DNA of 29,412 bases, from the IMG/VR virus record IMGVR_UViG_2617270990_000002; one strand, written 5' to 3'. The stretch comes from a virus. Taxonomy: Duplodnaviria; Heunggongvirae; Uroviricota; Caudoviricetes. Shown here in pieces: positions 6,001 through 9,000 of the stretch; positions within the stretch are counted from its first letter, which is position 1, and each line of letters begins with the position of its first letter. Made by a program: the position numbers.

Positions 6001-9000
6001 CATCAGCGTGCCGGTGCTGCCATTCGGCAACAAAATCCTCGTAAGCCTCGGTCATTGGTCGGCCGTTTGACTGGCGATACTGCGCCAGAAATTCGGGCAA
6101 CCAGTTAATATCTTCGGCTTTTATTTCCTGGCGTTTACCTGGTGCCAGCAAAAGCAGGCGTTCAGCAGCGTTCTGTGCCTTATTAAAGGCCGCAATCCAG
6201 CGTTTCAGCGTGATTTCACTCAACACGCGACTGTTTCCCTTTCTGGCGTTCGCTATCTCAACCATTGCCACAATGCGCTCATCCAGTTGCGAGTGTGACA
6301 GGCGGTCAACGATGAACCGGATAGCTTTAGCGCAGCTGAAACCGGGTTGTTGCGTGAATTTCAGCACCTCACTGACGATCGCAATGCGTGCGTCTGCCAC
6401 CTGGCGCTGGTTTTCAGTCAGGGCATTGAGGCGTTCGACCATCAGTTGTGGTGATCCGCGATATGCCTCCACCGCATCAACCACGGCAGACGAGCGTCTG
6501 GCCTTTGTCACCACCGGAGCCGGTGATTCATCGGCTTTTTGCGTCATCAGTTGCAGGGCATAACGTTCGCGTAATGCCTGCTGTGTCACTTCAGGTAAAC
6601 AGTCAATGCTGTATTCAAAACCTTTAGCGCCTTTCTTGCGGCGTCTGCTGGTTTCGCTGGTTGCATACTTCCTGATTGAATAGCGAACGCCTTGCTCCGT
6701 TCCCGGCATCCCCGGTAATCCAACCAGTTCTTTGACTGAAGCAAACATAATTACGCGACCTTACGAATGTAGCGGCTGGGCCAAATCTCCTCGGGCGGCA
6801 CCCCCAGGCATTCCGCGATAATCCCCTCATACTTGGGAACATGGCGGTATACCGCGTTGTACAGATTGTTCTGACCCACGCCAGCTTTACGGGCCAGCGC
6901 CCTCATGCTTCCTTCTCTGGCTCTGACTTCCCCCAAAATTCTTTGAGGATGCCAATCAGGCTTAACTTCATTTCTCGCCATGATTCATCTATCCTAAAAA
7001 GTTACGAAATTTGATAACTAAACTTAGTTATCAAGTTTGATATAAGTATTGATCCACCTCTGCTTCATGTAAAGCAAAAAAACATCTTTCTTTTGTCTAT
7101 TGTGGATCAATGGTTGCTGACAACACTAAAAGTTAATAATTTCAAATTGATAGGAAGAAAAGAAAATGAACAAGCAAACAACAACATCTCTTTCTTTTCC
7201 TGGTGGTAGAAAAGAAAGCATTGCTGAGCGTCTGAAAAGGCTGATTGGCTCCCGCAGCGTCAGAGCTGCAGCAAGAGATTGGGGGCTTTCATTTTCAACA
7301 CTAAACAATTATCTGTCTCGTGGCACTGAGCCATCCTTAAGTGTCGCCCTTCAGATTGCGTCTATCGAAGGAGTAAGTGTTGAGTGGCTATGTGGATTCA
7401 GTGATGCATCACAAGTGAATCGGTGTGAGATCAAGGAAAATCAAGATGAAAGCAAGAAGATAATTATGACGATTATCAGCGCACTTGATGAAAAAGACTT
7501 AGAGCAGCTATCGAAAAATTTGGTTCTGAATGGAGCCAAGTACTTAGCTCGGTTGTTAGAGCCTGAAAATCAAGATCTAATCCGCTTAGAAGGAAGGAAA
7601 AGAATAGCTGCATTACAGCTTGAAGGTATGTCTGACGAACGCGTCAGAGAGATTTTGGAAGAAACTGAGAGAAGTCGCAAATCTAACGCGGTAGAACCAA
7701 AAGCGGGTTAATAGCATTAGCCCGCATTTTGCACTATATCGAGTATTTCGCATTGTTTGGAACGCCTTAAAAGACTAAAACCACAGTATCAAATGAGTTG
7801 CCGATTTTATAATAAATGACTAATTATTGCACAATCGGTATCAAATAGACCTTATCCGCACATCTAGCCATCACCTGTTTTATTTCAGTATCTTACAGGT
7901 GATTTCACCTCCTTTCACTAAAACCCTTGTCGGTATCAAATGATTCACCTGGTTATAATACTCACGCAGCGGAACAGGCGCTGGCGCAGCGTCGGCAGCT
8001 TCAGCCCCCACACGCTGTATCCGGCAACGCCGTCAGGAACACGGCTAACTTTCACCTTCACGCCGTCGGTGACGGACTGAACCTCCACGCTGACCGGATT
8101 GCCACTTCCGTCAACCAGGCTTATCAGCCTGGTGCCGGAGGATGGCAGCGTGATTTCACGGTCGAGCGTCAGCGTCCGGGTCTGGCTGTTTACCGCCAGC
8201 ACGCGCCCGCCGATGCTGATACCGGCATAGTCATCATCACAGATTTCAATGACATCACCCGGCACATGGCGAAGCCCTTCTGCGCCCACGCTGAAGTCCA
8301 CGGTCTGCGTTTCCAGCAGTTCTGTTTTAATCAGCCACAGCCCGGCGCGGTGTGCCTGCCCCCGGCTGGTACAGCCAAAAGCATCCATCTTCGTGACGTT
8401 ACGACCGTAACGGGCAATGGCCTGCGTATCCTCCACAAGCTCTGTTGCCGTCTCCCAGCCGTTGTTCGGGTCAATCCAGTTCACCTCAACGGCATTATGG
8501 CGGTCTTTCAGGGCGCTAAAGCTGTAGCGGAACGGCGCGCCATCATCCGGCATCACCACATTACTGCGGTTATAGGTCCACACCTTATCCGACGGTCGGT
8601 CCTGCACGAACGTCAGCGTCTGCCCGTTCCATACCGGCATACAGCGCATCGCCGAGCAGAAATCACTGAGCACATCCCACGCCTTGCGCTGTGTGGTCAG
8701 GTACGCATTACAGGTGATGCGCGGCTCCGTACCGCCAAAACCGTCCGGCACTGACTGGTCGCAGTACTGGCCGATGACATACAGCGCCCATTTATCCACA
8801 TCCGCCACACCAAGACGTTTCCCCATGCCGTAGCGTGGATGGGTCAGCATATCCCACAGACACCAGGCCATGTTATTGCTGTATGCTGGCTTAAACGTTC
8901 CGTCCCAGATACCGCTGTATTGCCGCGTCTGCGGGTTATAGTTCGACGGCACCTGCAGAATACGCCCGCGCAGATGATAATTACGGCTCACCTGCTGGCT

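What the first reader, a model, noticed from the sequence alone, without database searches (positions are those of the whole stretch)
7780..7955. Candidate transposase-binding repeats at the Mu-like left end
Three same-orientation copies of (c)rGTATCAAATr at 7784-7797, 7836-7848 and 7931-7943, with a fourth partial copy and an 8-bp inverted repeat between them. Number, orientation and spacing (about 52 and 95 bp) mirror the L1-L3 MuA sites of Mu attL, although the sequence differs from Mu itself. The terminal copy aligns 15 of 21 positions with Mu L1 (GATTCACTTGAAGTACGAAAA) on the opposite strand.
Basis: seen in the sequence. Interest (0 to 1): 0.5.

Follow-up and report, generated by a model that had tools for sequence, protein, structure and literature searches.

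The report
Transposase-binding repeats of Mu-like prophage end
The three repeats are real and are almost certainly the docking sites for the transposase at the left end of an Sp18-type Mu-like prophage, an expected feature of such phages, though this clade differs from phage Mu in leaving a 4-bp rather than 5-bp target duplication and ending in TA rather than CA.

Summary
Window 1-7957 is the left part of a Mu-like (Sp18-type) prophage inserted into gene J of a lambdoid prophage; the junction is at 7957|7958. Three same-orientation copies of (A/T)TTTGATAC(C/T)(G/A), read on the minus strand, lie 17, 112 and 164 nt from the terminus.

A full-length copy of the same phage in another E. coli genome carries three inverted copies at its other end, at 17, 39 and 74 nt. 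Six of the seven TTTGATAC octamers in its 38.4 kb are these sites (0.8 expected).

In six E. coli lineages the spacers have diverged but the cores are invariant. In a relative whose transposase is 74% identical, all six sites change together to TTCAAGATAA at nearly the same positions. That transposase differs mainly in residues 1-200 (43-51% identity, against 94% in the core). The repeats track the transposase, not the repressor (42% identity between phages with the same motif) or a host factor.

Differences from Mu: the site consensus differs, R3 is direct rather than inverted, the termini are TA...TA, and the target duplication is 4 bp in 7 of 7 insertions. The claimed 15/21 match to Mu L1 needs gaps. 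No binding experiment exists. This is a new member of a known kind, of modest interest.

The parts
7930..7941 (-). L1 core, ATTTGATACCGA on the minus strand, starting 17 nt from the element terminus
   Evidence: It is invariant in 6 E. coli lineages. R1 lies at the same 17-nt offset at the other end.
7835..7846 (-). L2 core, ATTTGATACCGA, 95 bp inward of L1
   Evidence: TTTGATAC forms an invariant island within a diverged spacer.
7783..7794 (-). L3 core, ATTTGATACTGT, 52 bp inward of L2
   Evidence: TTTGATACT forms an invariant island within a diverged spacer.
7942..7957 (-). Terminal 16 nt of the element, TATAACCAGGTGAATC, holding the inferred cleavage site at the 3' TA. The element ends at 7957.
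   Evidence: Twelve E. coli genomes match window 7000-7957 and then diverge into different host genes. Relatives carry TATGACTAGGTAATTT and TATGAAGAGGTAAATC.
7958..7961 (.). Left copy of the 4-bp target-site duplication, ATAC
   Evidence: The right-end junction in strain 600029 reads ...ACGGATAC|TATAGCG. Joining the two flanks restores gpJ ...CVSI|REND....
7870..7903 (.). Perfect 9-bp inverted repeat with a 16-nt loop in the L1-L2 spacer. The loop holds the partial motif copy at 7886-7895. It is a candidate packaging or bending element (inference).
   Evidence: Nucleotides 1-88 of the end are nearly invariant in 6 lineages.
4661..6748 (-). Transposase of 695 aa, the presumed reader of the repeats
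   Evidence: Pfam HTH_Tnp_Mu_1 and Mu-transpos_C score above threshold, with weak rve hits. Identity to MuA is 23%. The Ialpha domain matches 1tns. D308, D374 and E414 are invariant in the family alignment.
3646..4587 (-). MuB-like AAA+ target-capture ATPase, 313 aa
   Evidence: Pfam Phage-MuB_C and AAA_22.
6751..6981 (-). Ner-like regulator, 76 aa
   Evidence: Pfam HTH_35.
6982..7165 (.). Intergenic region between the repressor and ner-like genes, with palindromes at 7007-7038 and at 7048-7057/7102-7111. It is the candidate operator and transpositional enhancer (inference by analogy with Mu).
7166..7711 (+). Immunity repressor of 181 aa, XRE/CI type rather than Mu c type
   Evidence: Pfam HTH_3. 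It is only 42% identical to the repressor of LC727881, which has the same end motif.
7958..9684 (-). 5' part of lambdoid gpJ, interrupted by the insertion. The ORF runs into the Mu end and stops at TGA 7945-7947.

Best explanation
The three repeats are the left-end transposase-binding sites (attL L1, L2, L3) of an active Sp18-type Mu-like transposable prophage. Each copy of (A/T)TTTGATAC(C/T)(G/A) is the conserved core of a site. The 22-bp abutment of R1 and R2 suggests a site about 22 bp long. Each site is proposed to bind one monomer of the 695-aa DDE transposase, through the DNA-binding region between its Ialpha domain and its catalytic core (roughly residues 71-200).

Three inverted sites at the right end complete the set of six. 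L1 and R1 each start 17 nt from their terminus, which would place the catalytic subunits at the terminal ...TA-3'. The long L1-L2 spacer (95 bp, about 9 helical turns, carrying a conserved hairpin) and the shorter L2-L3 gap (52 bp) would let the left arm fold back as in the Mu transpososome. The Ialpha domain would bind an enhancer in the operator region at 6982-7165. After cleavage, the 3' ends would attack target phosphates 4 bp apart, with the MuB-like ATPase delivering the target.

Shown here: the sites, their inverted arrangement, their conservation and covariation, the element boundaries, and the 4-bp duplication. Inferred: which protein domain binds, the site length, the enhancer, and the role of the spacer.
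For: 1. Inverted copies exist at the other end of a full-length copy. In the 38,428-bp prophage TTTGATAC occurs 7 times: at 18, 113 and 165 on one strand and at 38347, 38382 and 38404 on the other, plus one internal copy. The expected count is 0.83.
2. Phylogenetic footprint. In six E. coli lineages the sequence beyond nt 88 is scrambled, yet TTTGATAC at L2 and L3 is invariant. Across 22 distinct sites from four lineages the 8 core positions carry 2.0 bits each.
3. Concerted change. In the VL40-type relative all six sites read (A/T)TTCAAGATAA. L1 and R1 are still at offset 17, and R1-R2 (22 bp), R2-R3 (35 bp) and L2-L3 (52 bp) are unchanged; only L1-L2 differs (71 bp against 95). Its transposase is 43-51% identical over residues 1-200 but 94% over 271-430.
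4. The motif is unchanged in LC727881. There transposase residues 71-200 are 90-94% identical, while the repressor is only 42% identical and the Ialpha domain 61%.
5. The right protein machinery is adjacent: Mu-type Ialpha and C-terminal domains, a DDE core, and a MuB-like ATPase.
6. The element is mobile. Near-identical copies lie in bcsA, a diguanylate cyclase gene, elyC, a fimbrial usher gene, gpJ and other sites, each with a clean duplication.
7. The architecture parallels Mu: 3+3 sites, equal terminal offsets, R1-R2 exactly 22 bp apart, and a long then a short gap on the left (PMC3145075).
Against: There are no binding or footprint data. The core does not match the MuA site consensus ungapped (11/21), and no Pfam model detects Ibeta or Igamma domains in residues 70-296. 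The AlphaFold model was too poor to test their presence (mean pLDDT 41). R3 is direct here but inverted in Mu. The termini are TA rather than the CA that MuA cleaves. Only 8 bp per site is strongly conserved, so the true extent of each site is unknown.
Confidence: 0.85

Rival explanations
1. The repeats are binding sites for the host bending protein IHF (or another host factor), which shapes the phage ends; they are not the transposase sites.
For: Every copy contains TATCAA, the WATCAA half of the IHF consensus. Mu transposition uses host bending proteins.
Against: None of the six sites matches the full WATCAANNNNTTR consensus. The VL40-type relative, which lives in the same host species, replaces all six sites with TTCAAGATAA, which lacks WATCAA, and this change accompanies a divergent transposase N-terminal region. 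A host protein's specificity would not change with the phage.
Confidence: 0.04
2. The repeats are operator-like sites for the phage repressor or the Ner-like protein, silencing or protecting the ends in the lysogen.
For: They lie just downstream of the repressor gene. TTTGATA-like words also occur in the operator palindrome at 7007-7042.
Against: Phages with the same motif have repressors only 42% identical and different immunity regions. The sites also occur at the far right end beside mom, 38 kb from the immunity region. The operator region has its own distinct palindromes.
Confidence: 0.03
3. The repeats are packaging (pac) recognition elements or chance AT-rich repetition, with the real transposase sites lying elsewhere in the terminal 90 nt.
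For: From memory, Mu's pac lies near the left end between L1 and L2. The terminal 88 nt, including the hairpin, are more conserved than anything further in. The region is AT-rich, and 0.5% of shuffles give some triple 8-mer.
Against: Headful packaging in Mu starts from the left end only, yet the motif is mirrored three times at the right end with the same 17-nt offset. Chance cannot explain six of seven genome-wide copies lying at the termini, nor the concerted switch in the VL40 type.
Confidence: 0.05

Closest known systems
Phage Mu attL/attR MuA-binding sites (L1-L3, R1-R3)
   Same: There are three sites per end, and the ends are inverted relative to each other. The terminal site lies at the same offset at both ends, and R1 and R2 are exactly 22 bp apart. 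On the left a long L1-L2 gap is followed by a shorter L2-L3 gap: 95+52 = 147 bp here, 105+40 = 145 bp in Mu. The neighbouring genes are a repressor, ner, A and B in the same order. The transposase shares the Ialpha and C-terminal domains.
   Different: The core is TTTGATAC rather than the MuA consensus. If the gapped alignment to Mu L1 is homologous, the core sits 5 bp further from the terminus. R3 is direct rather than inverted. The termini are TA...TA rather than TG...CA. The target duplication is 4 bp rather than 5. The transposase is 23% identical to MuA, and its core matches retroviral integrase chains better than the MuA core. The repressor is XRE-type and not related to the transposase N-terminus as in Mu.
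Sp18, the Mu-like prophage of E. coli O157:H7 Sakai, and the Mu-like phages inserted in Stx phages of CC119 STEC (e.g. LC727881)
   Same: They belong to the same phage family. The LC727881 transposase is 93.5% identical. It has the same six TTTGATAC sites at the same positions, the same right terminus, and the same 4-bp duplication, which its depositors annotated. The right end occurs in 232 of 5,426 complete E. coli genomes, including O157:H7. Sp18 DNA is packaged (PMC2669165), and the CC119 phages sit at variable sites (PMC10132054).
   Different: The window's phage has another immunity module, with a repressor 42% identical and a Ialpha domain 61% identical. Its left terminus is TA instead of TG. 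This left-end variant was found in 12 genomes. I found no paper describing the end sites of this family.
Yersinia phage vB_YpM_5/6 (classified in Muvirus)
   Same: The transposase is 80% identical overall. It has the same TTTGATAC core at six sites and the same right-end geometry of 17, +22 and +35 nt.
   Different: Its left spacings are 104 and 42 bp, as in Mu. Its L1-L2 spacer is homologous to Mu's, and the transposase C-terminal tail is identical to MuA's (LEQNRRKKAI). It is therefore a chimera of the two lineages.

Membership tests
Mu-type transposable-phage ends (MuA-site architecture) | Several transposase-site repeats at each terminus, inverted between the two ends | tested here: met
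   There are three copies at each end of the full-length copy L002, in opposite orientation. Six of the seven genome-wide copies are these sites.
Mu-type transposable-phage ends (MuA-site architecture) | Terminal sites L1 and R1 at the same distance from the cleaved terminus; R1 and R2 abutting at 22 bp | tested here: met
   The core starts at nt 17 at both ends and R1-R2 is 22 bp. The same holds in three related lineages. In Mu the anchors lie at nt 22 at both ends and R1-R2 is 22 bp.
Mu-type transposable-phage ends (MuA-site architecture) | R3 inverted relative to R1 and R2 | tested here: not met
   R3 is in the same orientation as R1 and R2 here. In Mu it is inverted.
Mu-type transposable-phage ends (MuA-site architecture) | Sites match the MuA 22-bp consensus | tested here: not met
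   Ungapped, L1 matches Mu L1 at 11/21 positions, which is background level. Gapped, it matches at 16/21 with two indels.
Mu-type transposable-phage ends (MuA-site architecture) | Termini 5'-TG...CA-3' | tested here: not met
   The window element and L002 read 5'-TATAACC...GCTATA-3'. Sp18-type relatives have TG at the left end but TA at the right.
Mu-type transposable-phage ends (MuA-site architecture) | 5-bp target-site duplication | tested here: not met
   Seven of seven paired junctions give 4 bp: GACG, CGTA, TCTA, GATG, TTCA, ATAC and TTAG. Mu gives 5 bp and B3 gives 6 bp (PMC8705779).
Mu-type transposable-phage ends (MuA-site architecture) | Adjacent transposase with Mu-type domains, plus a MuB-type ATPase | tested here: met
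   Pfam HTH_Tnp_Mu_1, Mu-transpos_C, Phage-MuB_C and AAA_22 all score above their cut-offs. The Ialpha domain matches 1tns.
Mu-type transposable-phage ends (MuA-site architecture) | Bipartite end-binding domains (Ibeta and Igamma) in the transposase | tested here: inconclusive
   There is no Pfam hit for residues 70-296. Only a colinear 23% BLASTP alignment to MuA covers this region. The AlphaFold model has pLDDT below 50 from residue 70 onward.
Mu-type transposable-phage ends (MuA-site architecture) | Transposase physically protects the repeats | not testable with these tools
   This needs EMSA or footprinting.
Sp18-like Mu-like prophages of E. coli | Shared transposase, end sequences and late region with phages described as Sp18-like | tested here: met
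   The transposase is 93.5% identical to that of the Mu-like phage in LC727881. The CC119 STEC paper (PMC10132054) describes the Mu-like phages it found, several of them inserted in Stx phages, as similar to Sp18; I did not confirm that the LC727881 record comes from that study, and a search for its strain name found no paper. The right end is 96% identical in O157:H7 genomes. Sakai Sp18 itself was not fetched.
IHF binding sites | WATCAANNNNTTR consensus | tested here: not met
   Zero of six sites match the full consensus; only the WATCAA half is present.

The most novel reading that the evidence does not exclude
The Sp18-type clade, widespread in E. coli, Shigella, Salmonella and Yersinia, may be a mechanistically distinct branch of transposable phages. 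Its transposase has an integrase-like core. It accepts YA-3' termini (TA at one or both ends), holds the terminal binding site about 5 bp further from the scissile bond than MuA does, and cuts the target with a 4-bp stagger. End specificity appears to be re-programmed by exchanging a roughly 130-residue N-terminal module, giving TTTGATAC against TTCAAGATAA sites on a 94%-identical catalytic core. That would offer a natural pair of orthogonal Mu-like transposition systems.
Probability: 0.5. Interest if true: 0.5.

Novelty: new member of a known kind. Interest (0 to 1): 0.35.

Why it matters
It gives a concrete map of sites and boundaries for a Mu-like phage family present in about 4% of complete E. 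coli genomes (232 of 5,426), including many STEC, where it disrupts genes and other prophages. The exact ends allow clean annotation of these prophages and their insertion sites: TA or TG at the left, TA at the right, a 4-bp duplication, and six TTTGATAC sites. The natural pair of site motifs with nearly identical catalytic cores is a ready-made system for asking how Mu-type transposases read their ends. It could also supply orthogonal mini-transposon tools. None of this overturns the Mu paradigm.

Tried and rejected
1. Structure test for Ibeta and Igamma domains. An AlphaFold2 run on an alignment of 12 homologues, all at least 79% identical, gave mean pLDDT 41, with only residues 1-69 confident. 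No fold search was attempted. The homologue search returned only close relatives in its top 120.
2. Pfam scan of residues 70-296 at E up to 10 gave nothing relevant.
3. A profile search of PDB sequences found only the Ialpha domain and retroviral integrase cores. The MuA core scored E = 0.2.
4. The genome-contig scan with the transposase returned only two loci, but these turned out to be the informative VL40-type lineage.
5. Pseudomonas phage VW-6B (47% identical transposase): the record starts 53 bp before the repressor gene and lacks the end.
6. D3112: the right end of the record appears to be host DNA, and no shared repeat was found.
7. Literature searches for the LC727881 strain name and for a 4-bp duplication in Mu-like phages found nothing specific.
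8. I considered and rejected a 5-bp duplication with shifted boundaries. The bases do not match in any of the pairs examined for this (L002, HH35 and LC727881), and BLAST matches from 12 left ends and at least 40 right ends all include the terminal T/A.
9. I considered the single internal TTTGATAC (prophage position 20382, in the major head gene) as a possible central site. One copy is what chance predicts.

Full report
**What is in the window.** Positions 1-7957 carry the early region of a Mu-like prophage. The genes are:
- a repressor of 181 aa (7166-7711, + strand);
- a Ner-like regulator (6751-6981, - strand);
- a 695-aa transposase (4661-6748, - strand);
- a MuB-like ATPase (3646-4587, - strand).

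From 7958 onward the sequence is gene J of a lambdoid prophage. Twelve complete E. coli genomes match window 7000-7957 at 94-100% identity and then continue into different host genes. Thousands of genomes match 7958-8300 as gpJ. The element therefore ends at 7957, and the prophage has inserted into J. The truncated J reading frame runs into the phage end and stops at TGA 7945-7947.

**The observation.** On the + strand, ACAGTATCAAAT lies at 7783-7794, and TCGGTATCAAAT lies at 7835-7846 and 7930-7941. The 10-mer with up to one mismatch occurs 6 times in the window against 1.64 expected. Some 8-mer reached three copies in only 0.5% of shuffles of the end region. Read inward from the terminus on the minus strand, the cores ATTTGATACCGA, ATTTGATACCGA and ATTTGATACTGT start at nt 17, 112 and 164. 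A perfect 9-bp inverted repeat (7870-7878 and 7895-7903) lies between L1 and L2, and a partial copy of the motif sits in its loop. The quoted 15/21 match to Mu L1 is 11/21 ungapped, which is background level in this window, and 16/21 with two indels.

**The other end.** A full-length copy of the same phage (38,428 bp) interrupts bcsA in E. coli S1-CAM-01-A.
- Its left end is identical to the window's.
- Its right end, read inward, is TATAGCGCGGCGATTT-TTTTGATACCGA...ATTTGATACCGC...ATTTGATACTAA. That is three inverted copies, at nt 17, 39 and 74.
- In the whole prophage TTTGATAC occurs seven times: three at each end and one internal, against 0.83 expected.

**Conservation.** The left ends of six E. 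coli lineages align almost perfectly for nt 1-88, which covers L1 and the hairpin. They diverge strongly beyond that point. Even so, TTTGATAC at L2 and TTTGATACT at L3 remain invariant islands. Across 22 distinct sites from four lineages the eight core positions are invariant, and the flanking positions are only weakly conserved. The consensus is (A/T)TTTGATAC(C/T)(G/A).

**Covariation with the transposase.** A relative found in Shigella and E. coli (the VL40 type) has a transposase 74% identical.
- All six of its sites read (A/T)TTCAAGATAA.
- L1 and R1 are still at offset 17, and R1-R2 (22 bp), R2-R3 (35 bp) and L2-L3 (52 bp) are unchanged. Only L1-L2 differs, at 71 bp against 95.
- Its transposase is 94% identical to the window's across residues 271-430 but only 43-51% identical across residues 1-200.

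The Mu-like phage in LC727881 shows the reverse pattern. It keeps the TTTGATAC sites, and residues 71-200 of its transposase are 90-94% identical. Its repressor, however, is only 42% identical and its Ialpha domain 61%. The repeats therefore follow the segment of the transposase between Ialpha and the core. They do not follow the immunity system or the host. None of the six sites matches the full IHF consensus.

**Mobility, boundaries and duplication.** Seven paired junctions all show a 4-bp duplication flanking 5'-TA/TG...TA-3'.

| Insertion | Duplication |
|---|---|
| bcsA | GACG |
| diguanylate cyclase gene | CGTA |
| elyC | TCTA |
| Stx2c phage (LC727881) | GATG |
| VL40 | TTCA |
| fimbrial usher gene | TTAG |
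| gpJ (this window) | ATAC |

For the gpJ site, the window's left junction was paired with the right junction in strain 600029. Joining the two flanks restores the J reading frame. The depositors of LC727881 also annotated a 4-bp duplication. Mu cleaves at a terminal CA and makes a 5-bp stagger (PMC3145075), and B3 gives 6 bp (PMC8705779). I found no paper describing a 4-bp duplication or the end sites for this family.

**Comparison with Mu.** In Mu the site anchors lie at nt 22, 127 and 167 on the left. On the right they lie at nt 22 and 44, with R3 inverted.

Shared with Mu:
- three sites at each end;
- equal terminal offsets at the two ends;
- a 22-bp R1-R2 spacing;
- a long gap followed by a short gap on the left;
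- the order of the neighbouring genes.

Different from Mu:
- the site consensus;
- the orientation of R3;
- the terminal dinucleotide;
- the length of the duplication;
- a transposase only 23% identical to MuA, whose core matches retroviral integrase chains better than the MuA core.

Yersinia phage vB_YpM_5 links the two lineages. It has the Sp18-type transposase and sites, but a Mu-like L1-L2 spacer, Mu-like left spacings of 104 and 42 bp, and MuA's C-terminal tail.

**Mechanism proposed.** Six transposase monomers would bind the six cores. L1 and R1 would position the active sites on the terminal TA-3'. The Ialpha domain would contact an enhancer in the operator region at 6982-7165, which carries its own palindromes. 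The folded left arm and the abutting R1-R2 pair would build a Mu-like transpososome, and strand transfer would use a 4-bp stagger with help from the MuB-like ATPase. The conserved hairpin spacer may serve packaging or bending. The binding domain, the enhancer and the spacer role are inferences. My attempt to check Ibeta and Igamma domains by structure prediction failed, with a mean pLDDT of 41.

**Verdict.** These are the expected end sites of a known family of Mu-like prophages, so the finding is ordinary in kind. The 4-bp duplication, the TA termini and the module-linked switch of site specificity are modestly interesting details.

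Noticed in passing
window 7942-7961; L002 1465-1475 and 39890-39900; L003-L006, L009, L015, L016, L022: This phage clade leaves a 4-bp target duplication (7 of 7 paired junctions). It ends in 5'-TA...TA-3' in the window type and TG...TA in the Sp18 type. Mu has TG...CA and a 5-bp duplication.
   Followed up: yes
window 7945-9684 (- strand): The Mu-like prophage is inserted inside gpJ of a lambdoid prophage. J is cut after ...FRCVSI, at codon 576, and gains three codons and a stop from the Mu end. The matching right-end junction, with the rest of J, is present in E. coli strain 600029 (L016). In that strain the left end lies next to sgrR, which suggests a rearrangement between two copies or a different strain history.
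   Followed up: partly
L012 2737-2900; L014 1700-1815; L015 105-260: A sister lineage (VL40 type, transposase 74% identical) uses TTCAAGATAA at all six sites, with the same terminal offset, the same right-end spacings and the same L2-L3 gap (L1-L2 is 71 bp against 95). Its L1-L2 spacer contains a perfect IHF consensus, AATCAACAAGTTA, which the window's spacer lacks.
   Followed up: partly
L010 600-1020 (Yersinia phage vB_YpM_5): This phage is a chimera. It has Sp18-type transposase sites, but its L1-L2 spacer is homologous to Mu's (CCGGGAGG...GGAT...CGGGAT.TGATGGGAT) and its transposase ends in MuA's LEQNRRKKAI. This fits the idea that the spacer travels with the packaging module and the sites with the transposase. 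The circular record keeps about 80 bp of host DNA between the two ends.
   Followed up: partly
window 6982-7165: The intergenic region between the repressor and ner-like genes has a 15-bp inverted repeat (7007-7021 and 7024-7038) and a 10-bp perfect inverted repeat (7048-7057 and 7102-7111). These are candidate operators or a transpositional enhancer. TTTGATA-like words occur here in the opposite orientation to L1-L3.
   Followed up: partly
window 7870-7903: A perfect 9-bp stem with a 16-nt loop lies in the L1-L2 spacer, within an 88-nt terminal block that is nearly invariant across lineages whose neighbouring sequence is scrambled. Its function is unknown; packaging or bending is possible.
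   Followed up: partly
window 4661-6748 (- strand): The transposase core (residues 360-425) matches retroviral integrase structures (E about 1e-5) better than the MuA core 1bcm (E = 0.2), although the N-terminal Ialpha and the Mu-transpos_C domains are Mu-type.
   Followed up: partly
L002 19544-19623 (outside the window): RefSeq annotates a 'tRNA-OTHER' on the minus strand between the head-morphogenesis genes of the full-length prophage copy.
   Followed up: no
L002 9935-10915: The full-length reference copy in strain S1-CAM-01-A carries an ISKpn26 (IS5-like) insertion in its early or middle region, so that particular copy may be defective.
   Followed up: no
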